Assembly: GCA_001563915.1 (NCBI GenBank)
Contig: LKMP01000016.1
Span: forward strand, 1 to 15,782
DNA length: 15,782 nt
Reading direction: 5' to 3'
Source of the DNA: Nanohaloarchaea archaeon B1-Br10_U2g21
GTDB taxonomy: Archaea; Nanohalarchaeota; Nanosalinia; Nanosalinales; Nanosalinaceae
In this document: positions 61 through 12,888 of the stretch, in pieces
How positions within the stretch are numbered: position 1 is the first letter of the stretch
How the letters are laid out: every line of letters begins with the position of its first letter
Notes under the pieces: generated by a model
Told to the model about the DNA's origin: nothing
Databases searched by the model: none
The model's input: the letters and a program-made list of their open reading frames with translations, nothing else
Translations under genes and position numbers: made by a program

Positions 61-648
61 TCAATACTTTGATTGATGTTTTTCTGCTTCCTCTAGAGAT
101 TTCTCAATCCATTCTGATGCATTTTCCTCTACTACATCCCCATGACCAGGATAAAATTCCTCTACCTCTAGAGCCAATAACTTCTTAATTGAAGCAATAA
201 GCATATCTCGACTCCCTTCTGCTAGATCAGTTCTCCCAAATCCGGCCTCAGGAAATATTAAGTCTCCTGTGAAAAGAATGCCGTTTCTCTTGTTATAGAT
301 ACATATAGAGTCATTTTTGTGACCTGGCGTATGAAAAACTTTAAACTCTAAACCTAAAATTTTGATTTCGTCTCCATCCCTAAGTTTTTCCGCATCTACA
401 TCCAAATTAGAAGGCTCATATGCATACACATCAGGAGAAAACTTCTCTATTATTTTAGAGAGATTATCAATATGATCATAGTGACTATGCGTTATAACCA
501 CTTTTTCAAGTGAATCTAAATTTTTAACAACGTCCCAAGTATCTCCTGTACCTGCATCAACGAGACAAACCTCACCTTTTTCCATCTTCCACACATTACC
601 AGTAAAATCTTCTGCTTCAGAAGCCAGATTTTCGATTTCCATGTACAT
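61..648 (-). CDS. MBL-fold metallo-hydrolase (glyoxalase II-like family)
   Basis: Motifs LVDAG, THSHYDH (HxHxDH), HTPGH, LFTGD, GRTDL and YPGHG. The second ATG at 642 fits TATA spacing better. Confidence 0.9.
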   Translation of the reverse strand: MYMEIENLASEAEDFTGNVWKMEKGEVCLVDAGTGDTWDVVKNLDSLEKVVITHSHYDHIDNLSKIIEKFSPDVYAYEPSNLDVDAEKLRDGDEIKILGLEFKVFHTPGHKNDSICIYNKRNGILFTGDLIFPEAGFGRTDLAEGSRDMLIASIKKLLALEVEEFYPGHGDVVEENASEWIEKSLEEAEKHQSKY

Positions 649-660
649 AGAGTAGAAAAG

Positions 661-673
661 CTATATTTTTAGG
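661..673. promoter_or_regulatory. Shared/bidirectional TATA-like element between two divergent MBL genes
   Basis: The 48-bp intergenic gap has one central AT element (CTATATTTTTAGG) about 25-30 nt from both start codons. Confidence 0.45.
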
Positions 674-696
674 CCTAACTATCCTCTGTATAAACA

Positions 697-1479
697 ATGA
701 AGCTGCACTTTTTAGGAACTGGAGGAGGCCGATTTGTCACAGGAACACAGAAAAGAAAAACTGGCGGCATGATATTAGAAACAAATGAAACTGCACTACA
801 CATTGACCCGGGACCTGGCGCTCTTATAGGCCTCAATGCAAATTCAAGTTATCCTAGAGAAAAACTTGAAGGCATAATTGTTTCGCACTCTCACCTAGAC
901 CATTACAACGATGCAGAAGCCTTGCTAGAAGTAATAACGCAATGCGAAAAAAACTACTGTCAGCTGATGGCTCCAGAATCAGTACTGAAAGGATTCAGCG
1001 ATACTGAGCAGACTATAACAAACTACCATCAAAACATGTGTAACAAAATAGTTCAGCTGGAAAACGATGGAAAAACAAAGTTCCAAGGCCTAGAAATTGA
1101 AACTCAAGAGATGTTCCATACAGATCCTAAGTGCGTAGGTTTCAAAGTATCTAATGGCGAGAAAAAATGGGGATTCTGGACAGACACACAGTATGGTGAA
1201 GAATTAGTAGGGTTCTACGACGACTGCGACGTTATCGTGATCTATTGCTCAAGACCGTGGAAAGAACCTTACAAAGGCCATACAGATTTAAGTGACGTGC
1301 CTAAAATACTCGGAAATTCAGAGGCCTCAACCGTTATAATCACTCACCTGGGGTACAAATTCCTAGAATCTGATCTAGAAAAACAGAAAACATTGCTACA
1401 AGATGAAATTGATCAAAAAGTTGTATTTGCAGAAGACGGAATGACTTTCCCAGGTAACAGAAGCTTAGGGGACTTCTAG
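697..1479 (+). CDS. MBL-fold metallo-hydrolase, RNase Z/PhnP-like (phosphodiesterase-type) archaeal family
   Basis: N-terminal LHFLGTGGGRF, then HIDPGPG, SHSHLDH, FH, WTDT, HT and ITH motifs. Confidence 0.85.
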   Translation: MKLHFLGTGGGRFVTGTQKRKTGGMILETNETALHIDPGPGALIGLNANSSYPREKLEGIIVSHSHLDHYNDAEALLEVITQCEKNYCQLMAPESVLKGFSDTEQTITNYHQNMCNKIVQLENDGKTKFQGLEIETQEMFHTDPKCVGFKVSNGEKKWGFWTDTQYGEELVGFYDDCDVIVIYCSRPWKEPYKGHTDLSDVPKILGNSEASTVIITHLGYKFLESDLEKQKTLLQDEIDQKVVFAEDGMTFPGNRSLGDF

Positions 1480-1516
1480 AAAACTTAGAGAGAATAATTG
1501 AACTAGTAGGAAATAC

Positions 1517-1522
1517 ATTAAA
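1517..1522 (+). promoter_or_regulatory. Putative TATA box (ATTAAA, preceded by purine-rich GGAAA) for a leaderless uORF/valS transcript
   Basis: Lies -29 to -24 from the ATG at 1546, the same spacing seen for other leaderless genes in the window. Confidence 0.4.
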
Positions 1523-1545
1523 GGCTAGGCCTCTACTGTGTTTAT

Positions 1546-1608
1546 ATGAACGGCGTCTATTCAATTAAGGGTGAATATTTTGTATCGGCAGCCGTTTCAC
1601 TACTTTGA
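1546..1608 (+). CDS. Putative 20-aa leader peptide (uORF) of valS: MNGVYSIKGEYFVSAAVSLL
   Basis: Runs from ATG 1546 to TGA 1606-1608 with three Val codons (GTC, GTA, GTT). It has an appropriately spaced TATA-like box, and the stop codon lies in a hairpin arm. Confidence 0.4.
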   Translation: MNGVYSIKGEYFVSAAVSLL

Positions 1609-1626
1609 AACGGTTTTAAAACCGTT
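1590..1626 (+). promoter_or_regulatory. Overlapping inverted repeats in the valS leader
   Basis: GCCGTTTCA (1591-1599) pairs with TGAAACGGT (1606-1614). A perfect 18-bp palindrome AACGGTTTTAAAACCGTT (1609-1626) overlaps the 3' arm. Confidence 0.65.
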
Positions 1627-1649
1627 GAACTTTCTAGTTGATCTAAACC

Positions 1650-1654
1650 GGAGG
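1650..1654 (+). promoter_or_regulatory. Shine-Dalgarno-like GGAGG for valS
   Basis: GGAGG lies 11 nt before ATG 1666. Confidence 0.55.
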
Positions 1655-1665
1655 AGTATAATTTA

Positions 1666-4218
1666 ATGGAAGGAAATTACAATCCAGACCAAGTTGAATC
1701 CAAGTGGACTGAAAAATGGCAGCAAAAAGGAGTATATGAATACAGAGAAAGAGGTGACCAAGTATTTTCAATAGACACTCCGCCTCCAACGGTGTCGGGA
1801 AGTCTTCACTTCGGCCACACTTATGGGAACACGTTAGCAGATTTCAAAGCCCGGTTTGAGAGAATGAGAGATCAAGATGTTTTCTACCCGTTTGGTTATG
1901 ATAATAATGGTATTGCTTCTGAAAGGCTTACTGAAAGAGAATTAGATGTAAGACATCAGGACTATGAACGATTTGAGTTCCAGAAAATGGTTAGAGAAGT
2001 CTGTGAAAAGTATGAAGCAGAGTTCGAGGAAATAATGAAGGAATTCGCGTTTTCTATGGACTGGAATAATACTTACAAGACCATCCAACCGGAAGTACAG
2101 AGGATTTCTCAGCTATCTTTCCTAGAACTTTATGAAAAGGGAAGAGAATACCGTGAAAAAGCTCCTGCAATTTGGTGTCCGGACTGTGAGACGGCCATTT
2201 CACAGGTAGAAACTGAGGACATGGAGAAAAACTCGCATTTCAATGATATAGAGTTCGATTTAGCTTCAGGGAATGGAACTATTACTATTGCTACAACAAG
2301 GCCTGAACTAATCCCTGCATGTGTCGCAATATTTGTACATCCTGAAGATGAGGCCAATGAAAATCTAGTAGGAGAAAAAGCAGTCGTACCTCTCTTTGGA
2401 CAGGAAGTACCGATTCTTGAAGATGAACGCGTAGACATGGAAACAGGTACAGGAATAGTAATGTGCTGTACGTTCGGAGACCAGAATGATATTGAATGGT
2501 ATCAGGCTCATGATCTAGACCTGAAACTTGCGATCGATAGAGATGGTACAATGACAGATGAGGCTGGAGAATATGAAGGCCTAACAACGCATGAGGCACG
2601 TGAAAAAATAGTAGAAGATCTAGAAATCGAAAACAAGTTGCTTGACAGGCGAGGAATAACACATACTGTAAAAGTACACGAACGTTGTGACCACGAAATT
2701 GAGTTTATGGTAGCAGAACAGTGGTATATTAAAGTCCTTGACAAGAAGGAAATTTACCTAGATGCAGGGAAAGATATGAACTGGTACCCTGAGAAAATGT
2801 TTACACGTTACAAAAACTGGATCGAAGGTCTTGAATGGGACTGGTGCATATCAAGACAGAGAGATTCTGGAATTCCTTTCCCAGTTTGGTACCATAAAGA
2901 AACAGGTGAACCTGTCTTTGCGAATAAAGAGGATTTACCAGTTGATCCTATGGAGGACGAACCTCCAGTCGATAATCCAGAAGACTACGAACCAGAAACT
3001 GATGTATTTGATACATGGGCAACAAGCAGCTTGACTCCACTTATCAATGCCGACTGGAACGGAAAAGAAATCAAGAGGCCTGAACTTTACCCAATGAACT
3101 TAAGGTATCAAGGCCACGATATTATTTCTTTCTGGTTGTTCCACACATTAGTCAAATGTTACGAACATACCGGCGAAGTACCGTTCAAAGACGTTATGAT
3201 CCACGGTCACGTACTCGACGAGAACAGAGAGAAAATGAGTAAATCTCGGGGCAACGTCACATCGCCTAAGGAAGTTATTGATGAGTACCCAGTTGACGCA
3301 GCCCGTTACTGGTGTGCAGGCGCTAAGGTCGGCGATGACCTTGCGTTAAAAGAAAAAGACCTTATAGGCGGAGAAAAACTTTTACGTAAACTATGGAACG
3401 CCTCTAAACTCGTCGATAGTTTGACAGAAAAAAAGGCGGACGAGAAAGACGTCAAGTTGGAGTCCGTTGACAAATGGATGGTAGCAAAAACTGATGAAGT
3501 CGTAAAACAAGTTACAGAAAACTTCAAGGCTTATGAATTTTCAAAAGCTAGAGACACACTTAGAAGTTTCTTCTGGAATACATTCTGCGATGACTACCTA
3601 GAAATCTGTAAACAAAGACTTGAAGACGAAAACCCTAGTGCAGAAAAGGCCTTGAGACAGACTCACAAAAAGATTTTGCAAATGTTCGCGCCGTTCACGC
3701 CACATATTACTGAGGAAATTTGGAGAGAAATGTACTTATCCAGCTCAGTACATAGGTCTAACTGGCCTAAACCGCAAAAAGTGAAAACTGACCTGAAAAA
3801 AGGAGAAAACGCGATGGAAACAATCTCCCTTATCAGAAAATACAAGACAGATGAAAGAAAGGCCTTGAACACAGAACTAGAAGAAGTAGAGGTATTTGGA
3901 AAAATCGAAGGCTTTGAAAAAGCAATTAAAGAAGTAATGCACGTCAAAGAACTAGAAATCTCCGATAAATCTCCTGAACTAGAGACTAAAATCAAAGAAA
4001 TTAAACTAAACTACGGTCAAGCCGGACCTGAATACGGAGAAAATGTGCCTGAGATAGAAGAAGCACTTGAACAGAATGATTATCAATTTGAGTCAGGACA
4101 TTTAGAAGTCGCCGGTCATCTTTTGAAACCTGAAATGTTTAAGGTCATAGATGAAAAGGTCTACACTGGAGAAGGGACTTTCGTTGAAGGCGAAAGCATT
4201 TCAATAGTCGTAAGGTAG
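1666..4218 (+). CDS. valS: Valine--tRNA ligase (archaeal type)
   Basis: IDTPPPTVSGSLHFGH (HIGH), ATTRPE and GTGIVMCCTFGD editing-domain motifs, WDWCISRQR, QGHDIISFW and KMSKS; 850 aa. Confidence 0.97.
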   Translation: MEGNYNPDQVESKWTEKWQQKGVYEYRERGDQVFSIDTPPPTVSGSLHFGHTYGNTLADFKARFERMRDQDVFYPFGYDNNGIASERLTERELDVRHQDYERFEFQKMVREVCEKYEAEFEEIMKEFAFSMDWNNTYKTIQPEVQRISQLSFLELYEKGREYREKAPAIWCPDCETAISQVETEDMEKNSHFNDIEFDLASGNGTITIATTRPELIPACVAIFVHPEDEANENLVGEKAVVPLFGQEVPILEDERVDMETGTGIVMCCTFGDQNDIEWYQAHDLDLKLAIDRDGTMTDEAGEYEGLTTHEAREKIVEDLEIENKLLDRRGITHTVKVHERCDHEIEFMVAEQWYIKVLDKKEIYLDAGKDMNWYPEKMFTRYKNWIEGLEWDWCISRQRDSGIPFPVWYHKETGEPVFANKEDLPVDPMEDEPPVDNPEDYEPETDVFDTWATSSLTPLINADWNGKEIKRPELYPMNLRYQGHDIISFWLFHTLVKCYEHTGEVPFKDVMIHGHVLDENREKMSKSRGNVTSPKEVIDEYPVDAARYWCAGAKVGDDLALKEKDLIGGEKLLRKLWNASKLVDSLTEKKADEKDVKLESVDKWMVAKTDEVVKQVTENFKAYEFSKARDTLRSFFWNTFCDDYLEICKQRLEDENPSAEKALRQTHKKILQMFAPFTPHITEEIWREMYLSSSVHRSNWPKPQKVKTDLKKGENAMETISLIRKYKTDERKALNTELEEVEVFGKIEGFEKAIKEVMHVKELEISDKSPELETKIKEIKLNYGQAGPEYGENVPEIEEALEQNDYQFESGHLEVAGHLLKPEMFKVIDEKVYTGEGTFVEGESISIVVR

Positions 4219-4247: not shown

Positions 4248-6983
4248 ATGACACAGCAAAAACACCAGGAAATGTCGAAGTATCAGTTAAAAAAACTGAT
4301 AAAAAAACTGGATGACATCAGAGGTAGAAATACTGAACTAGTTTCAGTATATATCCCAGCAGGCTACGACATGGCAAAAATGGGGGACTTCATAACCAGT
4401 GAGGCCTCAGAAGCAGAAAACATTAAATCAAAGCATACGAGGAAAAATGTTCAAGCTGCGCTTGATAAAATAGGTCGCAAACTGAAGGAAGAACAACAAA
4501 CGCCTGAAAACGGGGTGGCGTTTTTTGCAGGAAATGTTTCTGAAAGAGAAGGCAGACCCGATATTCAGGTATGGGAAGTAATCCCGCCTCAACCTATCGA
4601 GTCACGGCATTACCGCTGCGACAAAGAATTTGTTCTTGAACCCTTGAAACAAATGATTGTAGACGACAAAGTCTACGGGCTTGTAGTAGCGGATAAAAAC
4701 GAGGCCGCAATAGGATTCTTGCAAGGAAACTCTGTCAAAACAGTTCAGACAATGTCCTCTAATGTTCCGGGAAAAACTAAGGCAGGGGGTCAATGTCTTG
4801 ATCCTGATACTATAGTTCAAATGTCTAATGGTGAATTACGTAGGATAGATGATGTTGAGGTAGGAGATTGTGTAAAGAGCGCAGATTTTGTGGAAATGAG
4901 GATAAAGGATTCAGAGGTAATTGATAAATGGGAAAATGAAAAAGAACTCTATAAAATAGAAACAAAACATCCTAAAAAAATTATTAAGGCTTCAGCAGAT
5001 CACGAGTTGTTTAGAACTGATAGAGGGGTAGAAAGTGTTGCAGTAAAGAATTTGGAAGAGGGCGATAAACTAATCTTTCCTGAGTCGATACAAACTTCTG
5101 AACAAGAAGAGCTTCTGATGTCACAAGACTGTTATAACTCCTTTATAATTTCAAATAGCGGGCGGCATAAATTAAAACAGAGAAGAAAAGAGAAAAGTCT
5201 CTCTCAGAAGAAGCTCAGTAGAAGAATAGATGCAACGCAAGCATCAATATCTAAAATTGAGTTAGGTGAGAGAAATGCGGGACAGGAGTTCTTGAGAAAT
5301 ATTTGTAACGAGTTAGGTTTAGATTTTATGGACTTCACAGCAAAGTACTGTATTGGTAAGAATTACAAATTGCCGAAAAGTATGGATAGAGATCTTGCAG
5401 AAATACTAGGTTACTTTATCGGAGACGGTAGTTTTGACTCAGAAAGATTAAATTTCCATGAATCTGATAGAGAAGTTGCTGAAAAATATCAGGAAAAACT
5501 AGAGTCAGTATTTGGCTGCGATACCTCAATTAGGTTTAGGGAGGATAAAAACTACTATCTGCTACGAGCGTTCGGGAAGCCGTTAGTCAAATTTGTCAAA
5601 AAGCATTTTCCAGAAATTAAAAAATCTAGAACTACTCAAATTCCTGCTAAAATATTGAGAGACGATGAAGAAGTGCTGAAAGGATTTATTACCGGTTTTT
5701 ATGATGCAGAAGGATCCTGTTCAGAAAACAGGAAACGTATCAGTATTTCAACTAACAATGAAGTATTAATGCATCAACTCCAATCAAGTCTTTTGAGAAT
5801 AGGAATAATATCTTCATTAACTACTTACAACAACTCAAAGAACCCTTACAGTAGCAATACTAAGTACACTGTAAGTGTTTCAGATCAAGAATCCATTGAG
5901 AAATTCGCAGAGTCTATAAAGCTTAAAGCGCCAAGGAAACAGAAAGAACTTGACGCAATATGCAATAATAAAAAATCCAAAAATAACAACCGCCAAATAG
6001 TTAAAAACGGTAAAGAAGTCAGAAATATATTAGAAGATCATGATTATCTAATGGAAGACTTCAAATCTGCCAATACCTATCTACAAGGCAAAAGAGAAAT
6101 TAGCAAGAAGGTATTTGAGGAAAGATTTGTCAAGAACTCAAAGGGAGATCTCAATAAACAGTTTAGAGATATTCAAAACTCTCAACTACTGCCCACAAAA
6201 ATAAAATCAATAGAAAAAATTGGGAATCGAAAAACAATTGATATCTCAGTAGAATCAAGAAATTTTATAGCCAACAACTTAGTGGTTCATAATTCAGCAC
6301 AGCGATTTGAGCGTTTTAGAAAGGAAATGTATCAAACGTTCATGAGAGAGATATCGGATAAGGCTAAACGGGCTTTTCTACCTAAGAAAAGAGAAGAGAA
6401 GCTTTTAGGAGTGATTGTTGGAGGCCCAGGATTCACAAAGGATAAGCTGATTGAGGATGATTACTTACATCAGGAGATACAGGAAAAAATAGTTGCAAAA
6501 GAGTCTACAAACTACTCTGGAGAAGAGGCCTTAGAAGAACTTGTTGCGAAAGCTGAAGACGCTATCGAAGATTCGCAGGTTATTAAGGAGAAAAATCTGG
6601 TTAAAGAGTTCTTTGAGAACCTGAAGAAAGAGAATGGTAAATCTGAGTATGGTCCTGAACAGGTGAAAAAGGCCTTAGATATGGGGGCAGTTAAAACTGT
6701 CTTGATATCGGAGTCGACAGAACTATACTATGCAGAGTTTGAGTCTAAATCCGGGGAGAAAAAGCATATATTCGAGAGTAAAGCTGAAATACCTGAAAAT
6801 ATGGAGTCTAGTAGCGGAGAAGAAATGGATTTAGTAGAACTGGCTGATATTGTAGATGCATTTGGTAAGACTGCTGAAGAAATGTCGAGCGAACTAGAAA
6901 TAATTGGGAATGATCACGAAGAAGGCCGTAGACTCGAAAACTTTGGAGGAATCGCAGCAATTCTTAGATACAGAATAAGATAG
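4248..6983 (+). CDS. prf1: Peptide chain release factor aRF1 (eRF1 family) precursor containing an intein; spliced product 411 aa
   Basis: Domain 1 has GRNTELVSVYIP, NIKS and YRCDKEF (YxCxxxF). KTKAGGQ|SAQRFER is restored after removing residues 183-682. Also GGPGFTK and the C-terminal FGGIAAILRY. Confidence 0.97.
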   Translation: MTQQKHQEMSKYQLKKLIKKLDDIRGRNTELVSVYIPAGYDMAKMGDFITSEASEAENIKSKHTRKNVQAALDKIGRKLKEEQQTPENGVAFFAGNVSEREGRPDIQVWEVIPPQPIESRHYRCDKEFVLEPLKQMIVDDKVYGLVVADKNEAAIGFLQGNSVKTVQTMSSNVPGKTKAGGQCLDPDTIVQMSNGELRRIDDVEVGDCVKSADFVEMRIKDSEVIDKWENEKELYKIETKHPKKIIKASADHELFRTDRGVESVAVKNLEEGDKLIFPESIQTSEQEELLMSQDCYNSFIISNSGRHKLKQRRKEKSLSQKKLSRRIDATQASISKIELGERNAGQEFLRNICNELGLDFMDFTAKYCIGKNYKLPKSMDRDLAEILGYFIGDGSFDSERLNFHESDREVAEKYQEKLESVFGCDTSIRFREDKNYYLLRAFGKPLVKFVKKHFPEIKKSRTTQIPAKILRDDEEVLKGFITGFYDAEGSCSENRKRISISTNNEVLMHQLQSSLLRIGIISSLTTYNNSKNPYSSNTKYTVSVSDQESIEKFAESIKLKAPRKQKELDAICNNKKSKNNNRQIVKNGKEVRNILEDHDYLMEDFKSANTYLQGKREISKKVFEERFVKNSKGDLNKQFRDIQNSQLLPTKIKSIEKIGNRKTIDISVESRNFIANNLVVHNSAQRFERFRKEMYQTFMREISDKAKRAFLPKKREEKLLGVIVGGPGFTKDKLIEDDYLHQEIQEKIVAKESTNYSGEEALEELVAKAEDAIEDSQVIKEKNLVKEFFENLKKENGKSEYGPEQVKKALDMGAVKTVLISESTELYYAEFESKSGEKKHIFESKAEIPENMESSSGEEMDLVELADIVDAFGKTAEEMSSELEIIGNDHEEGRRLENFGGIAAILRYRIR
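4794..6293 (+). mobile_element. Class 1 intein (500 aa) with XRE-type HTH and LAGLIDADG homing endonuclease, inserted between GGQ and Ser of aRF1
   Basis: Block A CLDPDTIVQMSNG (Cys1 at 4794), block B IKASADHELF, block C LAEILGYFIGDGS (5394-5432), block E GFITGFYDAEGS (5682-5717), block H ISTNNEVLMHQLQSSLLRIGI, block F TIDISVESRNFIAN and block G LVVHN, followed by Ser+1 (6294). Exactly 1500 nt, in frame. Confidence 0.97.
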
Positions 6984-7460: not shown

Positions 7461-8861
7461 ATGACTAAAGAAAATATTGATAAGAACCAGGAAAGGTTTG
7501 AACACAGAGTAGACACGAACGAAGGGTATAAAGCGGGAAAAGGACTTACCGAAGATTTGATTAAGGCAATTTCTAAGGATAAAGACGAACCAGAATGGAT
7601 GCTTAAAAGAAGGCTGAAAGCGTTTAGACACTTCGAAAAACGACCGATGCCTAATTGGGGTCCAGACCTATCAGGACTTGACTTTGAAGAAATAACACAT
7701 TACTTAAGGCCTGACGCTGAACAGAGCGATGACTGGAACGAAGTACCTGAAGAAATCAAAGAGACATTTGATAAACTAGGCATACCTGAAGCAGAAAAAG
7801 AGGCCTTGTCAGGCGTAGGAGCCCAGTTTGAGTCACAAGTAGTCTACCAGAACATGAAAGAAGAATGGGAAGAAAAAGGAGTAATATTTTGCGACATGGA
7901 CAAAGCAGTTCAAGAACACCCAGAACTAGTAAAAGAATATTTCATGACTAAGTGTGTGCCTGCACAAGATAACAAGTTTGCAGCACTCCATGGGGCAGTA
8001 TGGAGCGGAGGTAGCTTCGTATATGTGCCGGAAGGTGTAGAAGTCGAGATACCTGTACAGGCTTACTTCAGAATGAACTCAAAAGGAATGGGGCAGTTTG
8101 AACACACATTAATTATTGCTGAGGAAAATAGCCAAATCCACTACATAGAGGGCTGTTCAGCGCCTATGTATACAAGAAATAATTTACACGCAGGATGTGT
8201 AGAGGTTTTTGTCAATGATAATGCTCATGTACAGTATTCTACAGTTCAAAACTGGAGCAAGAACACCTACAATTTAAACACCAAACGAGCTAAAGTACAA
8301 AGCGATGGAGTAATGGAGTGGATCTCAGGATCAATGGGATCTAAGGTTACTATGCTCTATCCTTCTTCACATCTCAATGGAGAAGGTGCACGAGCTAACC
8401 ATATTACGATCGGTTTTGCGGGAGACGGCCAAGATATAGATACAGGAGCAAAAATCGTTCACAATGCTCCAAATACTAAGTCTACCATAGAATCTAAATC
8501 TATTAGTCAAGGAGATGGACGAACTAACTACAGAGGACTAATCAGAATACCTAAGGGTAGTCATGGCAGTAAGACCTCTATTGAATGCGATGCCTTAATG
8601 TTCAGTAAGGAAGCTACGTCAGATACTGAACCATATATTGAAATCAAAGAAGATGATGTTGAAATGGCTCATGAAGCAACAGTCGGAAGAATAGGTGATG
8701 AAGAAATACATTATTTGATGAGCCGAGGTCTTGAAGAGGAAGAAGCCAAGGAAATGATTGTAAGAGGGTTTATTGAACCGATCGCTAAAGAACTGCCAAT
8801 GGAATATGCTGTTGAACTTAACAGACTGATCCAATTGGAAATGGAAGGCAGTCTAGGATAA
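7461..8861 (+). CDS. sufB: Fe-S cluster assembly scaffold SufB
   Basis: KLGIPEAE, FAALHGAVWSGGSFVYVP, GQFEHTLII, YIEGCSAP, YSTVQNWS, DTGAKI, ECDAL, HEATVG, YLMSRGL and C-terminal EYAVELNRLIQLEMEGSLG. Confidence 0.97.
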   Translation: MTKENIDKNQERFEHRVDTNEGYKAGKGLTEDLIKAISKDKDEPEWMLKRRLKAFRHFEKRPMPNWGPDLSGLDFEEITHYLRPDAEQSDDWNEVPEEIKETFDKLGIPEAEKEALSGVGAQFESQVVYQNMKEEWEEKGVIFCDMDKAVQEHPELVKEYFMTKCVPAQDNKFAALHGAVWSGGSFVYVPEGVEVEIPVQAYFRMNSKGMGQFEHTLIIAEENSQIHYIEGCSAPMYTRNNLHAGCVEVFVNDNAHVQYSTVQNWSKNTYNLNTKRAKVQSDGVMEWISGSMGSKVTMLYPSSHLNGEGARANHITIGFAGDGQDIDTGAKIVHNAPNTKSTIESKSISQGDGRTNYRGLIRIPKGSHGSKTSIECDALMFSKEATSDTEPYIEIKEDDVEMAHEATVGRIGDEEIHYLMSRGLEEEEAKEMIVRGFIEPIAKELPMEYAVELNRLIQLEMEGSLG

Positions 8862-9338
8862 GTCTTTTTTGTTTTCTTTTATTAGTTGCTTCAGCTCCAT
8901 ATTGTCTTCTAGCTTAGGAGCAGTCAGTATAACGTTAGTTTCAGTTGATTGAATTCCTTTTGTTTGTTGCAGTTCTTTGAGAAAGGCATTCATGTCTTTT
9001 CGGCCTAGAAATCTGCTTATTACTATCATGTCTGTTTCTCCTGTAACTTCAAAGAAGGAAATCACTCTTGTGTGTGATTTAATTTTGTCTGCAGTCTCAA
9101 CAATCTGTTCTGCTTTAGCTTTTATGGCTATCATGGCAGTAAGTTCAAATCCTATCTTCTCATAATCTACTGAGGTTGTAAAACCAGTTATAATGCCTTT
9201 TTCTTCTAGTTTTTGAACTCTTCCGGCAACAGTAGATGTAGCTAATCCTATTTCATTGGCTATATCGCTGAACGCAGCTCTACCATCTTGCCTGAGAAAC
9301 TCTAAAATCTTTAAATCAGTCTCATCCACAGTAGTCAA
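8853..9338 (-). CDS. Lrp/AsnC (FFRP) family transcriptional regulator
   Basis: DETDLKILEFLRQDGR and an HTH (FSDIANEIGLATSTVAGRVQKLEEKGII), then VDYEKIG and a RAM domain with VTGETD. GTG at 9329 is a plausible alternative start. The 3' end overlaps sufB by 9 nt. Confidence 0.95.
   Translation of the reverse strand: MTTVDETDLKILEFLRQDGRAAFSDIANEIGLATSTVAGRVQKLEEKGIITGFTTSVDYEKIGFELTAMIAIKAKAEQIVETADKIKSHTRVISFFEVTGETDMIVISRFLGRKDMNAFLKELQQTKGIQSTETNVILTAPKLEDNMELKQLIKENKKDLS
8865..8880 (+). terminator. Oligo-T tract after sufB (archaeal-type terminator, inside the antisense Lrp 3' end)
   Basis: TTTTTTGTTTTCTTTT begins 3 nt after the sufB stop. Confidence 0.4.
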
Positions 9339-9362
9339 ATATTATTTTCTAAAACTTAAATA

Positions 9363-9381
9363 TTTCGAATAAGTTTCGAAA
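9363..9381. promoter_or_regulatory. Inverted repeat TTTCGAA-N5-TTCGAAA, candidate Lrp/FFRP operator
   Basis: Perfect 7-bp arms in the divergent Lrp/9418 intergenic region, between the two TATA-like elements. Confidence 0.45.
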
Positions 9382-9417
9382 CCTATGTATTTAAACTCTA
9401 AATATTTCTGAATAGGC

Positions 9418-9774
9418 ATGGACTTACACAATGAAATGGCCTTTGAAGACGATTTAAACCTTGATTTTCCTACTTATGCGAGACACTTCGTAGCAAACGA
9501 AGAAAGATATACCGAGGAAGGATTCTATTTCTATCAAATTCAGACAGGCCTTGAAGAATCTCCGAGAGCAAGTGAAGTAGTAGAAGATTTAGAAACTCTA
9601 GTTGAAGCCGGTATTCTTGAAAAAGATGAAGTAGATATATCATCTAAATTCCCAGATCAATACGTGTTAGCACATGATGAAGAAACAACAATAATGCAGA
9701 ACTATGCCGAAAAGACTCGTGAATGGACGGAAGAATACATTGAATCATTGAGATATGCTATTCCGAGAATATAA
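9418..9774 (+). CDS. Hypothetical acidic protein, possible winged-helix fold
   Basis: TATA TTTAAA at 9390-9395. SEVVEDLETLVEAGILEK...QYVL resembles a wHTH recognition helix plus wing. Confidence 0.7.
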   Translation: MDLHNEMAFEDDLNLDFPTYARHFVANEERYTEEGFYFYQIQTGLEESPRASEVVEDLETLVEAGILEKDEVDISSKFPDQYVLAHDEETTIMQNYAEKTREWTEEYIESLRYAIPRI

Positions 9775-9833
9775 GTCTTAAGGGTTGGTAAGGGTAATGC
9801 GTTTTTATGATTTAACTAAGAAATACTAATTTC

Positions 9834-10916
9834 ATGTTGCATCAAAAAATATCGGAAAGAGCCTCACAACTATTTAGAGAATTAGAAGGTCCTGAAAGTA
9901 TCAGGACACCGGGAAGAACATGGACACGATTCCCAAAAGTTGAATTAGAAGAAACAGAAAGTTACACGCCTGAAATAAGCGAGAATGGTGATGTAGAAGT
10001 ATTCACAGGAGAAGAAGCAGTAGAAGAAGCTGGCGATAAATTAATGGATGCAGTAAAACTTGAAGAGAATTGGCTGACAGCGCTACACGCCGCATCGATG
10101 AACTCCATAGTTTTTGTCAAGGCCTCAGGCAGTTCAAAAGTAAATGTTACCTACAAAAATGATGGGAGGCTACACTCACACATAGTTGCAGTTTTAGAGG
10201 AAGGCGCTGAACTTTCTCTAGTGGAAGAGTTCCGAGGATCCTCAGACGTGGATACTTCAATTGATGAATTCTACGTTGGAAAAAACGCCAATCTGGAGTA
10301 TGGGGCCATCGAATCCTCAGATACAGAAGTAAGGTACTCTGTTAGGAAAGCAATTCTAGACAGAGACTCTCACATCAACTGGTTGAACGGAATATTCAAT
10401 GGAAAACTTTCAAAGACTCGTGTCGAAACAGTTCTAAAAGGGGATAACTCCTCAACAGAAAAAACTGGAGTATGGTATCCTATAGAGGATCAACATTTTG
10501 ACATCTCACTAAAGACATACCATATTGGAGAGTATACAAAATGCGACATGGACTCCAGAGCAGTAGTTGACGATACTTCAAGATCTCTGTATGAAGGATT
10601 ACAAAAAGTAAAAGAATCTGCTGAGAATACAAAGAGTTTCCAAGATCAAGAAACACTTCTTCTATCTGATAAAGCGGAGGCAGATGCATCGCCAAAACTA
10701 ATGATTGAAAATCCTGAAGTTGAAGCATCACACGCTGCAGCAGCAGGAAATATACAGGAAGAAAAAAGACATTATCTTGAATCTAGAGGACTTTCAGAGA
10801 AAGCAGCAGAAAGACTAGTTGTAAAAGGATACTTTGAACCGGTCATGGAGAATATTGATAACCTAGGTTTAAAGGAAAAGATTAGAGAAGAAGTACAGAA
10901 AAAGATTGAGCACTAA
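9834..10916 (+). CDS. sufD: Fe-S cluster assembly protein SufD
   Basis: SufBD beta-helix family, with LLLSDKAEADASPKLMIENPEVEASHAA, YLESRGL and LVVKGYF. Confidence 0.92.
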   Translation: MLHQKISERASQLFRELEGPESIRTPGRTWTRFPKVELEETESYTPEISENGDVEVFTGEEAVEEAGDKLMDAVKLEENWLTALHAASMNSIVFVKASGSSKVNVTYKNDGRLHSHIVAVLEEGAELSLVEEFRGSSDVDTSIDEFYVGKNANLEYGAIESSDTEVRYSVRKAILDRDSHINWLNGIFNGKLSKTRVETVLKGDNSSTEKTGVWYPIEDQHFDISLKTYHIGEYTKCDMDSRAVVDDTSRSLYEGLQKVKESAENTKSFQDQETLLLSDKAEADASPKLMIENPEVEASHAAAAGNIQEEKRHYLESRGLSEKAAERLVVKGYFEPVMENIDNLGLKEKIREEVQKKIEH

Positions 10917-10926
10917 GAATTTTCCA

Positions 10927-12147
10927 CTACTTTTTTAGTTCTGATAATTTTGCCTTCATTAAAGGTATTCTCATCTCCTCTTCATGTAGGCCTCCATGAA
11001 CTCCTATGTCTTCTAATTCGCTAGTTTCTCCCCAGTGGAGTTTTTCTTTATCAGATATAATTACTATATCTCCTGCACGTTTGTCAAAGTCTTCTGCTTT
11101 TTCCCCTTGCCCAAAGTACCCTTCTTCCAGAGCTTCTTCTGTTTTAAGGACCTTTGCATCTAATTTTTGATTTAAGAACCGGTAGATATCATTCACTCTA
11201 CCATCTTTTACATGTAGAAAAACAGATCTTCCAGCGTTTCCACTAGGAGTTATAAGCTCTCCATCAATATCGGTTTCAATACACTCTGTTACTTCATCAA
11301 AGCTGAATAAATCTATTTTCTCACCGTGTTTAATCTGCCCATGATCTGCAGTAATCAGAATTAATGTATCCTCAGCTATATCATCGCTTATATTCTCTAC
11401 CAGATTGCGTTTTAAAGCATTTGAAATCATTTCTAACTGATTTGCTTCATCTTCTGTTTTTGGACCTCTAATATGAGCTATAGAATCTATGTCTGCAGTG
11501 TAAGCATAGATATATTTTCTGCCCTTGCGTTCTTCCAAAGTTTTCCTAATCTGTAAAGCCATATCTGCGGTATTGTGATAAGATACTTTTTCTGATCCGT
11601 AGGCGGTCAGTTCAGTATATTCGCCATCAATAATTTCTCTTTTAATTATTGAGAAACAATTTATTCCGTTATCTTTTAGTTTGGGATAAATAGGCTCTCC
11701 TTCAAAAAGCATTCTTGAATCAGCTTCGGTAAACGCTTCTTGAGCCCTTTCTCCGTCTACTGTGATAAAAGGAAGCGTGAAAAGTTTAGAGTCAATCTCT
11801 TCATAATACATTTCCCATCCAAGCAAACCATGCTCTTTTGGAGTTTTACCTGTATTTATACTTGTTAGTGTGGCAGGTGTTGCAGATGGAAACACGCTTG
11901 TAATTGATTCTAAGCCGCCAATATCCCTAATTTCTTCGAAAATTCCTGAAGAAAAATTTTCTAACTGGCTAGTACCTAGACCATCCACTAAAATCAATAT
12001 AACATTCTGGTAGTCTTTCTCAACATCAATAATATCTTCATTTAGTTCTGATAACTCCGAGTCTATATCAAATAGCGAAAATATTGTTCCGGGGATATCA
12101 GCTAGAGATCCGCCATCATAATTGGGAAAAACCATTCTACTCTCCAT
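10927..12147 (-). CDS. Alkaline phosphatase superfamily protein (nucleotide pyrophosphatase/phosphodiesterase-like)
   Basis: LILVDGLG, SVFPSAT (Thr nucleophile region), TGKTPKEHG, DSIAH, TADHG and HGG. Confidence 0.9.
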   Translation of the reverse strand: MESRMVFPNYDGGSLADIPGTIFSLFDIDSELSELNEDIIDVEKDYQNVILILVDGLGTSQLENFSSGIFEEIRDIGGLESITSVFPSATPATLTSINTGKTPKEHGLLGWEMYYEEIDSKLFTLPFITVDGERAQEAFTEADSRMLFEGEPIYPKLKDNGINCFSIIKREIIDGEYTELTAYGSEKVSYHNTADMALQIRKTLEERKGRKYIYAYTADIDSIAHIRGPKTEDEANQLEMISNALKRNLVENISDDIAEDTLILITADHGQIKHGEKIDLFSFDEVTECIETDIDGELITPSGNAGRSVFLHVKDGRVNDIYRFLNQKLDAKVLKTEEALEEGYFGQGEKAEDFDKRAGDIVIISDKEKLHWGETSELEDIGVHGGLHEEEMRIPLMKAKLSELKK

Positions 12148-12172
12148 ATAAAATGTTTATTGAGACCCATCT

Positions 12173-12239
12173 TTTTTTGAATTGCCATAGATTCAAAAAA
12201 TTCTATTTCTAAGATGAACTCTGGAAGAAAACTTAGAAA
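12173..12239. repeat. Two consecutive inverted repeats in a divergent intergenic region
   Basis: TTTTTTGAAT (12173-12182) pairs with ATTCAAAAAA (12191-12200), and TTTCTAAG (12206-12213) pairs with CTTAGAAA (12232-12239). Confidence 0.55.
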
Positions 12240-12270
12240 GAATTAAAAAATAAGCCGTTTCCATATTTTT

Positions 12271-12837
12271 ATGGATGGAAAGAGGTTAGAACACGCAATT
12301 TCGCTTTTAGGATATATTCTGCTTTTCGGAACGGTATTGATAATTCCTGTATACATTTCGACATTTTTACTTACAATCTTAATCGGATATGCTGTAGGCA
12401 TAGACTTTTCAAGCTTTATGCCAATGTCCGCATTCTTAGGTTCATACGTTAGTGTAACTATATTTCTAAATTCGTCTAGAGGCCAAAATATTGTTAAGTC
12501 AATGAAGGATTTAGAGGCAGTTATTATTCCGGCAGGAGGGTTCTTATTTATGGCAGCATCCAGCTTTGTAATGTTAAATTTATTTGGCAGAGAAGTCTGT
12601 GGAGGAGGGCCGTGTATGAACGTCCCTGATTTTGAAAATTATGCTTACCTATTAGGTATAGGCGCATCATACGTCCTCTCCAGTCTAACGGTATATCCTA
12701 GTTTAAAAAGACGAAGGACGAGTTTTAAACTGCTAATACTCTCTGCACACCAAATAGCAATAATTTTTATGTATATATTACTTTCTGGACCTTCGACGTG
12801 GATGGCGCCACTAATTATAGTAGGTTTAATACTCTAA
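12271..12837 (+). CDS. Hypothetical multi-pass membrane protein
   Basis: About 5-6 hydrophobic segments, a CGGGPC loop and TATA TTAAAA at 12243-12248. Confidence 0.8.
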   Translation: MDGKRLEHAISLLGYILLFGTVLIIPVYISTFLLTILIGYAVGIDFSSFMPMSAFLGSYVSVTIFLNSSRGQNIVKSMKDLEAVIIPAGGFLFMAASSFVMLNLFGREVCGGGPCMNVPDFENYAYLLGIGASYVLSSLTVYPSLKRRRTSFKLLILSAHQIAIIFMYILLSGPSTWMAPLIIVGLIL

Positions 12838-12888
12838 AGCCTTGAAGACTAGAGTTCAAATCATAAAATTTCTGGGTAAATAGCAGTT

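What the first reader, a model, noticed from the sequence alone, without database searches (positions are those of the whole stretch)
4785..6296. Intein inserted directly after the catalytic GGQ glutamine of release factor aRF1
The sequence reads KTKAGGQ|CLDPD...LVVHN|SAQRFER. Removing nt 4794-6293 restores the canonical GGQSAQRF loop and a normal-size 411-aa aRF1. The -1 residue is the universally conserved Gln that enters the peptidyl-transferase centre and is N5-methylated (PrmC/Mtq2-Trm112 type). The precursor should therefore be unable to release peptides or be methylated until spliced, making translation termination dependent on protein splicing. Inteins mostly sit in replication/recombination and nucleotide-metabolism proteins, with a few in translation factors such as IF2/aIF5B. 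I do not recall a characterised class I release-factor intein. Some halophile inteins splice salt-dependently and Cys1 inteins can be redox/metal-sensitive, so this could act as a conditional switch on termination/readthrough (inference).
Basis: partly seen in the sequence, partly recalled or inferred. Interest (0 to 1): 0.9.

Follow-up and report, generated by a model that had tools for sequence, protein, structure and literature searches.

The report
Homing intein inside aRF1 GGQ loop
A self-splicing, mobile protein insert (an intein) sits exactly at the catalytic GGQ loop of the only translation-termination factor of a tiny salt-lake archaeon; it is real and turns out to be common among such small archaea, but it looks like a selfish homing element, not a regulatory switch.

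Summary
ORF 4248-6983 (+) encodes a 911-aa aRF1 precursor. A 500-aa intein (nt 4794-6293) lies between Gln182 of GGQ and Ser683, and removing it gives a 411-aa aRF1 reading GGQSAQRF, as in intein-free aRF1s of the same genus.

The intein has every class-1 splicing residue, two LAGLIDADG motifs with their acidic residues, and an XRE-type helix-turn-helix domain. It is not a one-off. 115 of 120 listed database homologues carry an intein at the same site. It occurs in 12 of 62 judgeable genomes of the window's phylum and in 27 of 147 sampled genomes of the phylum holding a Woesearchaeota MAG. It also occurs in Aenigmatarchaeota, Micrarchaeota, Iainarchaeum-type and Thaumarchaeota records.

Several features point to a homing element: it is present or absent within five genera, mini-intein derivatives exist, the endonuclease motifs are conserved, and its GC is lower than the exteins'. 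The interrupted gene is the only aRF1 found, so splicing has to work. The "conditional termination switch" has no support here, though it is not excluded. Ten literature searches found no description of a release-factor intein. I file it as a new member of a known kind, of moderate interest.

The parts
4248..6983 (+). aRF1 precursor gene (911 codons plus stop): N-extein, intein, C-extein
   Evidence: ORF. TIGR03676 scores 409 bits, cut-off 234.7. eRF1_1, eRF1_2 and eRF1_3 in Pfam.
4248..4793 (+). N-extein, aa 1-182: aRF1 domain 1 (NIKS at aa 58-61, YRCDKEF at aa 122-128) and the first part of domain 2, ending in GGQ
   Evidence: TIGR03676 profile 2-174 at nt 4278-4796.
4785..4793 (+). GGQ codons (Gly180 Gly181 Gln182). 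Gln182 is the -1 residue of the intein
   Evidence: G180 and G181 are invariant and Q182 is at least 90% conserved in 54 aligned precursors.
4794..6293 (+). Intein, 500 aa (precursor aa 183-682)
   Evidence: Intein_splicing PF14890 66.6 bits, LAGLIDADG_3 80.5 bits, Hom_end, HTH_3. Fold match to the TliVMA intein 7qss, E 3.2e-22, TMt 0.76.
4794..4835 (+). Splicing block A, starting with the nucleophile Cys183 (CLDPDTIVQMSNGE)
   Evidence: C183 is invariant in 54 of 54. Cys1 is present in 108 of 108 full-size homologues. TIGR01445 intein_Nterm covers 183-255 at 22 bits, below its 24.5 cut-off. The block name is recalled nomenclature.
4974..5021 (+). Splicing block B (KKIIKASADHELFRTD) with His252
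   Evidence: H252 is invariant in 54 of 54. Coordinates.
5148..5357 (+). XRE/Cro-type helix-turn-helix domain (aa 301-370; Pfam HTH_3 on aa 309-360), inserted between the N-terminal Hint lobe and the first LAGLIDADG helix
   Evidence: HTH_3 E 2.3e-10, 40.8 bits, cut-off 23. Five helices at 303-367 with block pLDDT of about 90 or more. pI 9.93.
5385..5441 (+). LAGLIDADG motif 1 (DRDLAEILGYFIGDGSFDS) with the acidic residue Asp393
   Evidence: G388, Y389, G392 and G394 are invariant and D393 is at least 90% conserved. G-D-G is present in at least 106 of 108 full-size homologues.
5667..5723 (+). LAGLIDADG motif 2 (EEVLKGFITGFYDAEGSCS) with the acidic residue Glu488
   Evidence: G483 and G489 are invariant; D486, A487 and E488 are at least 90% conserved. 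The motif is found in 106 of 108.
5928..6182 (+). Helical region between the endonuclease core and the C-terminal Hint lobe, in the position of the 'accessory domain' of solved archaeal inteins
   Evidence: Helices 562-573, 588-597, 602-612, 620-628 and 633-643 in the model. The position is as described for accessory domains in PMC8966425 (passages). The assignment is inferred.
6225..6278 (+). Splicing block F (NRKTIDISVESRNFIANN) with Asp665
   Evidence: D665 and F673 are invariant in 54 of 54.
6279..6296 (+). Splicing block G (LVVHN: His681, Asn682) and the +1 nucleophile Ser683 (nt 6294-6296)
   Evidence: H681, N682 and S683 are invariant. HN and Ser+1 are present in 108 of 108.
6294..6983 (+). 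C-extein, aa 683-911 plus stop: the rest of aRF1 domain 2 (SAQRF...) and domain 3
   Evidence: TIGR03676 profile 174-402 at nt 6294-6974. eRF1_2 on 682-775 and eRF1_3 on 778-910.

Best explanation
The insert is a canonical class-1 intein carrying a LAGLIDADG homing endonuclease. It sits in the single aRF1 gene of a nanohaloarchaeon, between Gln182 of the GGQ loop and Ser683.

Shown here: the in-frame insertion, all splicing residues, two LAGLIDADG motifs with their acidic residues, an extra XRE-type HTH domain, the fold, and a patchy distribution among related genomes.

Inferred from the established class-1 mechanism: the 911-aa precursor undergoes an N-S acyl shift at Gln182-Cys183, transesterification to Ser683, Asn682 cyclisation and an O-N shift. 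This yields a 411-aa aRF1 with an intact GGQSAQRF loop and a free 500-aa endonuclease.

Inferred from how homing endonucleases work: the free protein recognises the uninterrupted GGQ|SAQRF coding DNA of intein-free alleles, aided by the HTH and the helical accessory region. It cuts that DNA and is copied in by repair. The site is attractive because its DNA is conserved by function and an imprecise deletion would be lethal.

Since this is the only aRF1 found, splicing must be efficient under the cell's normal conditions. I read the element as a tolerated parasite, not a control device.
For: Anatomy. TIGR03676 is split at profile position 174. Pfam finds Intein_splicing, LAGLIDADG_3 (two stretches), Hom_end and HTH_3. 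C183, H252, D665, H681, N682 and S683 are invariant in 54 aligned precursors, and D393 and E488 are at least 90% conserved. Of 108 full-size homologues, 108 have Cys1, HN and Ser+1, and 106 or more have each LAGLIDADG acidic motif.

Fold. The AF2 model has pLDDT 87.4. It matches aRF1 4af1 (E 3.4e-23), the TliVMA intein 7qss (E 3.2e-22, TMt 0.76), PI-PkoII, PI-PfuI and PI-SceI.

Same site elsewhere. 115 of 120 listed homologues have the same junctions.

Patchiness. In the window's phylum, 12 genomes are split at position 174 and 50 are uninterrupted, out of 70 searched. Five genera are polymorphic, and in the window's own genus it is 1 of 5. The intein-free aRF1s of that genus are 81-92% identical to the window's exteins and read the same across the splice junction. 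In the second phylum, 27 of 147 genomes with aRF1 are split, 17 by full-size and 10 by mini inteins.

Decay forms. Seven of the 115 are mini-inteins, and P0019 keeps the start of the HTH before a deletion.

Composition. Intein GC is 0.340 against 0.408 for the exteins, and it is lower in 9 of 10 genomes of the phylum.

Tree conflict. 14 of 47 well-supported intein splits conflict with well-supported extein splits.

Sole copy. There is no other aRF1 in this genome, nor in two complete genomes whose aRF1 carries the intein.

Genome background. This genome holds four more inteins.
Against: Neither splicing nor DNA cleavage has been shown for any member, so everything about activity is inferred from conserved residues.

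The intein and extein trees agree in broad outline. The same 17 nanohaloarchaeal rows form a clade in both, and the window pairs with P0002 in both. Much of the history may therefore be vertical or within-lineage.

The AU test did not reject a single clade of all 21 nanohaloarchaeal inteins (p 0.058), and that group was named after the tree had been seen. Transfer between phyla is therefore not demonstrated.

Lower GC could reflect the Lys/Asn/Ile-rich make-up of endonuclease domains, not foreign origin.

The trees are 'quick' trees with some long branches.

A patchy distribution does not exclude that some hosts have come to use the splicing step.
Confidence: 0.85

Rival explanations
1. The intein is a conditional switch. 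Splicing, and with it the supply of active aRF1, depends on salt, redox state or metals, so that termination and readthrough are tuned after translation.
For: The insertion is at the -1 catalytic Gln, so the precursor cannot present a free GGQ loop (inference). This is the only aRF1 found. The N-terminal Hint lobe is acidic (pI 4.55; 28 acidic against 16 basic residues in 118 aa), as expected of a protein that folds in high salt. Salt-dependent splicing of haloarchaeal inteins and redox traps of Cys1 inteins are recalled from the literature and were not checked here.
Against: The intein is absent from 50 of 62 judgeable genomes of the phylum, including four species of the same genus with 81-92% identical exteins. 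Those relatives manage without any such switch. Mini-inteins and intact endonuclease motifs are the marks of a homing cycle. Only C124 and C183 are invariant cysteines, so the intein holds no conserved partner for a disulfide trap. The same intein family sits in non-halophilic DPANN and in Thaumarchaeota. An obligate halophile is always at high salt, so salt dependence would be an adaptation and not a signal.
Confidence: 0.07
2. The intein is domesticated. The excised HTH-LAGLIDADG protein has a host function, such as XRE-like transcriptional regulation or protection of the aRF1 locus, and is kept for that reason.
For: An XRE-type HTH_3 domain scores above its Pfam cut-off. An HTH motif is found in 73 of 77 homologous inteins of 450 aa or more. 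The endonuclease part is the best-conserved part of the intein apart from the C-terminal Hint lobe (0.65 mean identity within the clade).
Against: 31 inteins of 400-449 aa and 7 mini-inteins at the same site lack the HTH, so it is dispensable. HTH-like accessory domains are described as DNA-recognition modules of homing inteins (PMC8966425, passages). Related HTH-bearing inteins sit in unrelated hosts: GlmS, a DHH-family protein, a metallo-beta-lactamase-fold protein, and the beta-CASP protein of this genome. That fits a portable targeting module. The patchy distribution argues against a needed function.
Confidence: 0.05
3. It is an artefact or a dead gene: a chimeric assembly, or an aRF1 pseudogene interrupted by a decayed element that no longer splices.
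For: The window is a metagenome-assembled contig. The C junction is not bridged, by the tool's 31-letter rule, in the two runs that were laid.
Against: The ORF is uninterrupted over 911 codons. Every splicing residue is intact. More than 100 independent assemblies show the same architecture, among them two complete genomes. Contigs bridge the N junction. No other aRF1 exists to take over.
Confidence: 0.01

Closest known systems
Archaeal V-ATPase subunit A inteins with a nested LAGLIDADG endonuclease (TliVMA 7qss/7qsu, PhoVMA 7qst; PMC8966425)
   Same: Best sequence match among solved structures (E 1.1e-16 over the endonuclease part). Best intein fold match (7qss, E 3.2e-22, TMt 0.76). Same modular plan of Hint, LAGLIDADG endonuclease and a helical accessory region before the C-terminal Hint lobe. 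Also inserted at a catalytic loop of an essential protein (the P-loop; passages).
   Different: The host protein and site differ (aRF1 GGQ loop). The window's intein has an additional XRE-type HTH between the N-terminal Hint lobe and the first LAGLIDADG helix. In the VMA inteins that connection is described as an unstructured loop of 28-32 residues.
PI-PfuI (1dq3), PI-PkoII/PI-TkoII (2cw7) and PI-SceI (1vde, 1lws)
   Same: Hint plus LAGLIDADG fold (E 2.0e-16, 6.9e-17 and about 1e-11 to 1e-13). These are the characterised homing inteins with extra DNA-binding modules (the DRR in PI-SceI, an HTH-like accessory domain in PI-TkoII; passages).
   Different: Sequence identity is only 12-18%. Their hosts are RNR, DNA polymerase and the V-ATPase. 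The position and type of the accessory domain differ.
Inteins in other translation factors (aIF2/IF-2 inteins listed for archaea in Novikova et al. 2016, PMC4760082)
   Same: An intein in a core translation protein. That paper's table lists aIF2 with 15 inteins and states that core translation components contain few inteins (passages).
   Different: The factor differs (class-1 release factor, not an initiation GTPase), as does the motif (GGQ, not a P-loop). 'Release factor' does not occur in that paper's main text. Its supplements could not be seen.
Ordinary intein-free archaeal aRF1 (for example 4af1, 3agk)
   Same: The exteins are a full aRF1. TIGR03676 scores 409 bits, and NIKS, YxCxxxF and GGQ are present. 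4af1 is the top fold hit. Congeners have the same gene without the insert.
   Different: There are 500 extra residues in the GGQ loop. The window's C-terminal domain also has only one extein cysteine, where close relatives have four.

Membership tests
Class-1 intein (Hint-domain protein-splicing element) | In-frame insertion in a host gene whose removal restores the uninterrupted host protein | tested here: met
   TIGR03676 is split at profile position 174 with about 1.5 kb between the halves. Intein-free congeners read GGQSAQRF across the same point.
Class-1 intein (Hint-domain protein-splicing element) | N-terminal nucleophile (Cys/Ser at position 1) and a block B His | tested here: met
   Cys183 and His252 are invariant in 54 of 54. 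Cys1 is present in 108 of 108.
Class-1 intein (Hint-domain protein-splicing element) | C-terminal His-Asn followed by a +1 Cys/Ser/Thr, and a block F Asp | tested here: met
   His681, Asn682, Ser683 and Asp665 are invariant. HN and Ser+1 are present in 108 of 108.
Class-1 intein (Hint-domain protein-splicing element) | Hint fold | tested here: met
   PF14890 scores 66.6 bits, above its 35.8 cut-off. The model matches solved inteins 7qss, 2cw7, 1dq3 and 1vde.
Class-1 intein (Hint-domain protein-splicing element) | Actual protein splicing (precursor converted to ligated exteins plus free intein) | not testable with these tools
   No proteomic or biochemical data are available. It is inferred from the intact residues and from this being the only aRF1 found.
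LAGLIDADG homing endonuclease (two-motif, intein-nested) | Two LAGLIDADG helices, each with a catalytic acidic residue | tested here: met
   LGYFIGDGS (Asp393) and FYDAEGS (Glu488). Both are at least 90% conserved and present in 106 or more of 108. PF14528 matches in two stretches at 80.5 bits.
LAGLIDADG homing endonuclease (two-motif, intein-nested) | Mobility: sporadic presence at one site among close relatives | tested here: met
   12 genomes split against 50 uninterrupted in the phylum, with five polymorphic genera. 27 of 147 in a second phylum. Transfer between phyla is not established (AU p 0.058).
LAGLIDADG homing endonuclease (two-motif, intein-nested) | Site-specific cleavage of the intein-free allele | not testable with these tools
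   This needs an in vitro cleavage assay.
aRF1/eRF1 class-1 release factor (TIGR03676) | Full-length match above the curated cut-off, with NIKS, YxCxxxF and GGQ motifs | tested here: met
   409.1 bits against 234.7. ENIKSK, YRCDKEF and AGGQ are present.
Conditional (redox-trapped) intein | A conserved second cysteine placed to form a disulfide with Cys1 | tested here: not met
   Only C124 (in the YxCxxxF motif of the extein) and C183 are invariant. The other intein cysteines are conserved in 1 to 40 of 54 rows. Distances in the model were not measured.
Conditional (salt-dependent) halophile intein | Splicing that occurs only at high salt | not testable with these tools
   Only composition could be examined: the N-terminal Hint lobe has pI 4.55 and the whole intein pI 8.78.

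The most novel reading that the evidence does not exclude
aRF1 is an undescribed intein hot-spot of small-genome archaea. About one species in five of two DPANN phyla makes its only termination factor through protein splicing at the GGQ loop, and some Thaumarchaeota add a second intein at the stop-codon-reading YxCxxxF motif. In at least some hosts the splicing step has become a post-translational gate on termination capacity, set by salt or redox state. The XRE-type HTH gives the excised protein a second DNA-binding role.
Probability: 0.1. Interest if true: 0.75.

Novelty: new member of a known kind. Interest (0 to 1): 0.42.

Why it matters
The finding adds a class-1 release factor to the list of intein hosts, and at the residue that performs peptide release. 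In these organisms every termination event depends on an earlier protein-splicing event. Core translation proteins are reported to hold few inteins (PMC4760082, passages).

The family is large and diverse, with full-size, HTH-less and mini forms at one site. That makes it a good natural series for studying the homing cycle and the role of accessory DNA-binding domains.

For annotation, public records call these genes 'LAGLIDADG family homing endonuclease' or 'helix-turn-helix domain-containing protein'. Such labels hide the only aRF1 of the genome and can make a MAG look as though it lacks a termination factor.

It does not, on present evidence, reveal a new regulatory principle.

Tried and rejected
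Regulatory switch. I looked for a conserved disulfide partner and found none. I looked for fixation in a clade and found none at genus level in five genera. I did not measure cysteine distances in the model.

Transfer between phyla. In the quick trees, four nanohaloarchaeal inteins fall with Aenigmatarchaeota and Micrarchaeota inteins. The AU test gave p 0.058 and the group was chosen after seeing the tree, so I do not claim transfer between phyla.

Expression. No RNA holder was listed by the look-up of sequencing runs, so nothing can be said about transcription.

Reads. The two runs laid (one sample, contigs only) leave parts of the intein without cover. At the C junction a contig has only 25 letters on the intein side, under the tool's 31-letter rule, so I do not count that junction as bridged.

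Second aRF1 copy. The third TIGR03676 match in the genome (C10:10049-10234, 25 bits, profile 138-199, 298-aa frame) is too weak and too short to be an aRF1. By analogy with the 40-63-bit matches in the other genomes I took it for pelota, but I did not verify this.

Literature. All ten searches found no paper describing a natural aRF1/eRF1 intein.
- PMC5871332 mentions a viral eRF1 and inteins separately (passages).
- PMC4760082 has no 'release factor' in its main text.
- PMC6514570 has no 'intein'.
InBase and subscription journals were not searchable. 'Not described' therefore holds only for the library searched.

No earlier findings were seen.

Not done: dN/dS, because the nearest available DNA relatives are only 56-62% identical in the intein; complex prediction; the Atlas search.


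Full report
OBSERVATION. The window holds one long ORF at 4248..6983 on the + strand, 911 aa. The DNA reads ggg ggt caa|tgt ctt gat cct gat at the N junction and gtg gtt cat aat|tca gca cag cga ttt at the C junction. That is KTKAGGQ|CLDPD and LVVHN|SAQRF, with the insert at nt 4794-6293 (500 aa, precursor residues 183-682).

NCBIfam TIGR03676 (aRF1_eRF1) scores 409 bits against a cut-off of 234.7, in two stretches. On the DNA they are profile 2-174 at 4278-4796 and 174-402 at 6294-6974. Pfam places Intein_splicing, two LAGLIDADG_3 stretches, Hom_end and an HTH_3 domain between the eRF1 domains. Four intein-free aRF1 genes of the same genus read PGKTKAGGQSAQRF(E/Q)RFRKE across the site. Over the splice junction this is the window's sequence with the insert removed.

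ANATOMY. I aligned 54 homologous precursors (A1).
- Invariant positions include Cys183 (position 1 of the intein), His252 (block B), Asp665 and Phe673 (block F), and His681-Asn682 followed by Ser683 (+1).
- In the two LAGLIDADG motifs, G388, Y389, G392, G394, G483 and G489 are invariant. The acidic residues Asp393 and Glu488 are at least 90% conserved.
- Among 108 full-size inteins at this site, 108 have Cys1, the terminal HN and Ser+1. 106 have the motif-2 acidic residue and at least 106 the motif-1 G-D-G. One, P0117, has GGG instead.

Between the N-terminal Hint lobe and the first LAGLIDADG helix lies an XRE/Cro-type HTH (Pfam HTH_3 on aa 309-360, 40.8 bits, cut-off 23). It is basic, pI 9.93. 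A second helical stretch, aa 561-645, lies between the endonuclease core and the C-terminal Hint lobe.

STRUCTURE. An AlphaFold2 model of the whole precursor, built from the 54-row alignment, has mean pLDDT 87.4 and pTM 0.60. Most 10-residue blocks of the intein are at 90 or above, and the GGQ approach (residues 176-179) is below 50. Foldseek against the PDB returns these matches:
- aRF1 4af1, E 3.4e-23;
- the endonuclease-bearing TliVMA intein 7qss, E 3.2e-22, TMt 0.76;
- PI-PkoII 2cw7;
- PI-PfuI 1dq3;
- PI-SceI.

By sequence the nearest solved chains are the same VMA inteins (E 1.1e-16). Beyer et al. 2022 (PMC8966425; passages read) describe 'accessory domains' between the endonuclease and the C-terminal Hint part, some of them HTH-like, that modulate DNA recognition. 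They describe the link from Hint to the first LAGLIDADG helix as an unstructured loop of 28-32 residues. In the window's intein that link is replaced by a folded XRE-type HTH. I read this as a further accessory DNA-binding module; this is inference.

HOW COMMON IT IS. The word-index search returned 153 relatives of 501-1595 aa.
- Of the 120 listed, 115 could be parsed with both junctions, GG[QWM]|C and HN|S. The other five are truncated.
- Source names include Nanohaloarchaea, Nanohalobium, Woesearchaeota, Nanoarchaeota, Aenigmarchaeota, Micrarchaeota and 'ainarchaeum'.
- NCBI calls most of them 'LAGLIDADG family homing endonuclease' or 'helix-turn-helix domain-containing protein'. One JGI record reads 'peptide subunit release factor 1 (eRF1)/intein/homing endonuclease'.
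- Size classes are 77 inteins of 450 aa or more, 31 of 400-449 aa and 7 under 200 aa. An HTH pattern is found in 73 of 77, 0 of 31 and 0 of 7 of these classes.

A scan of species-representative genomes found 443 relatives, of which the best 80 were kept. Intein-size matches lie in Woesearchaeota/Nanoarchaeota, Aenigmatarchaeota, Micrarchaeota (including the complete Ca. Fermentimicrarchaeum limneticum genome), the complete Ca. Forterrea multitransposorum genome, Iainarchaeum, and two Thaumarchaeota/Nitrososphaerales records.

PRESENCE AND ABSENCE. With TIGR03676 I searched all 70 genomes of the window's phylum.
- 50 have an uninterrupted aRF1 (49 full-length, and one cut at a contig end but running across the site).
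- 12 are split at profile position 174. The nine read in full besides the window have gaps of 1491-1560 nt; two are seen only in part.
- One is undeterminable.
- Seven show no aRF1: four have no match and three only a pelota-like one.
- Five genera are polymorphic: g1 1 of 5, g12 1 of 3, g15 1 of 4, g17 1 of 3, g21 1 of 5.

The window's genus is g1, and its four other species lack the intein. Their aRF1s are 81-92% identical to the window's exteins. That is as close as the exteins of the nearest intein-bearing homologue, P0002, at 83%.

I also searched an evenly drawn sample of 151 genomes of the phylum that holds the Woesearchaeota MAG of L005. 147 have aRF1. Of these, 118 are uninterrupted, 27 are split at position 174 (17 full-size; 10 with open frames of only 498-516 aa, that is mini-inteins) and two are fragmentary. 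The 118 is derived as 128 matches over the cut-off minus the 10 that reach it only when summed with their neighbours.

ONLY COPY. In the window's own genome (0.82 Mb, 24 contigs, 92% complete) the interrupted gene is the only aRF1. The one further match scores 25 bits. The same holds in two complete genomes with the intein, and in three further intein-bearing genomes whose completeness the tool did not report. Splicing must therefore deliver enough aRF1 for life.

SIGNS OF A MOBILE ELEMENT.
- The patchy distribution described above.
- Decay forms. Mini-inteins occur at the same site, and P0019 (184-aa intein) keeps the start of the HTH and then jumps to the C-terminal Hint lobe, as a deletion derivative would.
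- Conserved endonuclease residues.
- Composition. The intein's GC is 0.340 against 0.408 for the exteins and 0.384 for the window. It is lower than the exteins' in 9 of 10 genomes of the phylum, for example 0.434 against 0.581 in G037.
- Tree conflict. Quick ML trees of 108 exteins and of their inteins share 15 well-supported splits, but 14 of 47 well-supported intein splits conflict with well-supported extein splits.

Against over-reading the trees: the same 17 nanohaloarchaeal rows form a clade in both, and the window pairs with P0002 in both. An AU test did not reject one clade for all 21 nanohaloarchaeal inteins (p 0.058; the group was named after the tree was seen). Homing within lineages is well supported. 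Transfer between phyla is not shown.

The genome carries four more inteins, in ribonucleotide reductase, the PolII large subunit, a DEAD-box helicase and a beta-CASP protein.

MECHANISM (inferred from the class-1 pathway, which is established knowledge). The Gln182-Cys183 peptide bond becomes a thioester. The N-extein is passed to Ser683. Asn682 cyclises and releases the intein. An O-N shift then leaves a normal Gln-Ser peptide bond, which restores GGQSAQRF.

Until then the tip of the GGQ loop carries a 500-aa domain, so the precursor should be unable to place the Gln in the peptidyl-transferase centre. This is inference and was not tested. A HemK-related archaeal methylase gene is present (TIGR00537, 138 bits, cut-off 87), so methylation of the Gln after splicing is plausible.

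The free intein is expected to cut intein-free GGQ|SAQRF alleles. Among 14 alleles of the phylum the coding DNA around the site varies at third positions.

THE SWITCH IDEA. I could not test conditional splicing. What I could test gives it no support. The closest relatives lack the intein. No cysteine other than Cys1 is conserved in the intein. The family also lives in non-halophilic hosts. The acidic N-terminal Hint lobe (pI 4.55) fits folding at high salt. For an obligate halophile that is adaptation and not signalling. I give the switch about 7%.

NOVELTY. Ten full-text searches found no paper describing an intein in aRF1 or eRF1.
- The large intein survey PMC4760082 lists aIF2 among hosts and says core translation components hold few inteins. 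'Release factor' does not occur in its main text (passages).
- The release-factor evolution paper PMC6514570 never uses the word intein.

The sequences themselves are public and partly auto-annotated. I therefore file this as a new member of a known kind: a new host and site for an otherwise canonical homing intein.

SEEN IN PASSING.
(a) Ten aRF1s of DPANN archaea read GGW or GGM instead of GGQ. Eight have the intein and two (L051, L054) do not. All ten have Ser-Gln next, giving GG(W/M)SQ. In five such genomes this is the only aRF1 match. [quoted passage not shown]
(b) Two Thaumarchaeota records and P0154 carry a second intein in aRF1. In the two records it is read directly before the Cys of the YxCxxxF-type motif; in P0154 a second Intein_splicing stretch lies at about residues 119-367.
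(c) Related inteins, some with an HTH, sit in GlmS, a DHH-family protein, a metallo-beta-lactamase-fold protein, RadA and Top6B.

LIMITS. There are no RNA, protein or biochemical data. The trees are quick searches. Genome completeness is unknown for genomes reached through loci. The literature check covers only the open library.

Noticed in passing
P0107, P0110, P0114, P0117; L031, L039, L040, L045 (with intein); L051, L054 (without intein): aRF1 genes of some DPANN archaea read GGW or GGM in place of the 'universal' GGQ. All ten have Ser-Gln next, giving GG(W/M)SQ. In the five genomes checked (G070-G074) this is the only TIGR03676 match at E <= 1e-8. The register resembles the GGxSQ motif reported for aVLRF-1 and acVLRF-1 (PMC6514570, passage). 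The catalytic Gln may have moved two places; this is untested.
   Followed up: partly
L025:1099-5466 and L028:1-3999 (Thaumarchaeota / Nitrososphaerales records); P0154: These aRF1 genes carry two inteins. In L025 and L028 one lies directly before the Cys of the YxCxxxF-type stop-codon-recognition motif (...YLYM|C...LVHN|CDDHYH...) and one, with an HTH, at GGQ|C...HN|SARRY. TIGR03676 is matched in three pieces in G076. P0154 shows two Intein_splicing stretches inside an aRF1; its junctions were not read.
   Followed up: partly
G000:C16:96006-97079, C18:8327-9721, C15:9830-11344, C12:9217-9444 (loci L110-L115): The same 0.82-Mb genome has four more intein-bearing genes: the ribonucleotide reductase large subunit, the DNA polymerase II large subunit DP2, a DEAD/DEAH-box helicase, and a beta-CASP/RMMBL protein. 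The last intein also contains an HTH_3 domain.
   Followed up: partly
P0199, P0191, P0186, P0170/P0230, P0253, P0208/P0255: The intein alone finds 3830 representative proteins at E <= 1e-3 and 69 at E <= 1e-30. Full-length relatives lie in GlmS (with HTH_31), a DHH/DHHA1 protein (with HTH_3), a metallo-beta-lactamase-fold protein (with HTH_3), RadA, Top6B and other DHH proteins. The Hint-HTH-LAGLIDADG plan is therefore not special to aRF1.
   Followed up: partly
window 6294-6980 (C-extein, about aa 826-870): The window's exteins hold one cysteine, where close relatives hold four. Relatives such as P0019 and P0037 show a C...C-x-x-C pattern in the C-terminal domain (YECDNGHE...CDECG) that the window lacks. 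A small zinc-ribbon-like insert seems to have lost its cysteines here.
   Followed up: no
window 4794-6293 against 4248-4793 plus 6294-6980: Intein GC is 0.340 against 0.408 for the exteins. The gap is much larger in GC-richer relatives: G037 0.434 against 0.581, and G038 0.430 against 0.567.
   Followed up: yes
window 61-4218 and 7461-14070: The neighbours are ordinary housekeeping genes: two metallo-beta-lactamase-fold proteins, a class-I aminoacyl-tRNA synthetase (850 aa) directly upstream, and SufB-type and SufD-type SUFBD proteins with a class-V aminotransferase. An Lrp/AsnC regulator and a type-I phosphodiesterase lie among the Suf-type genes. Nothing suggests a mobile island around the aRF1 gene.
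   Followed up: yes
table (names given by sources): Public annotation labels most of these precursors 'LAGLIDADG family homing endonuclease' or 'helix-turn-helix domain-containing protein'. The only aRF1 of those genomes is therefore easy to miss in gene inventories.
   Followed up: no
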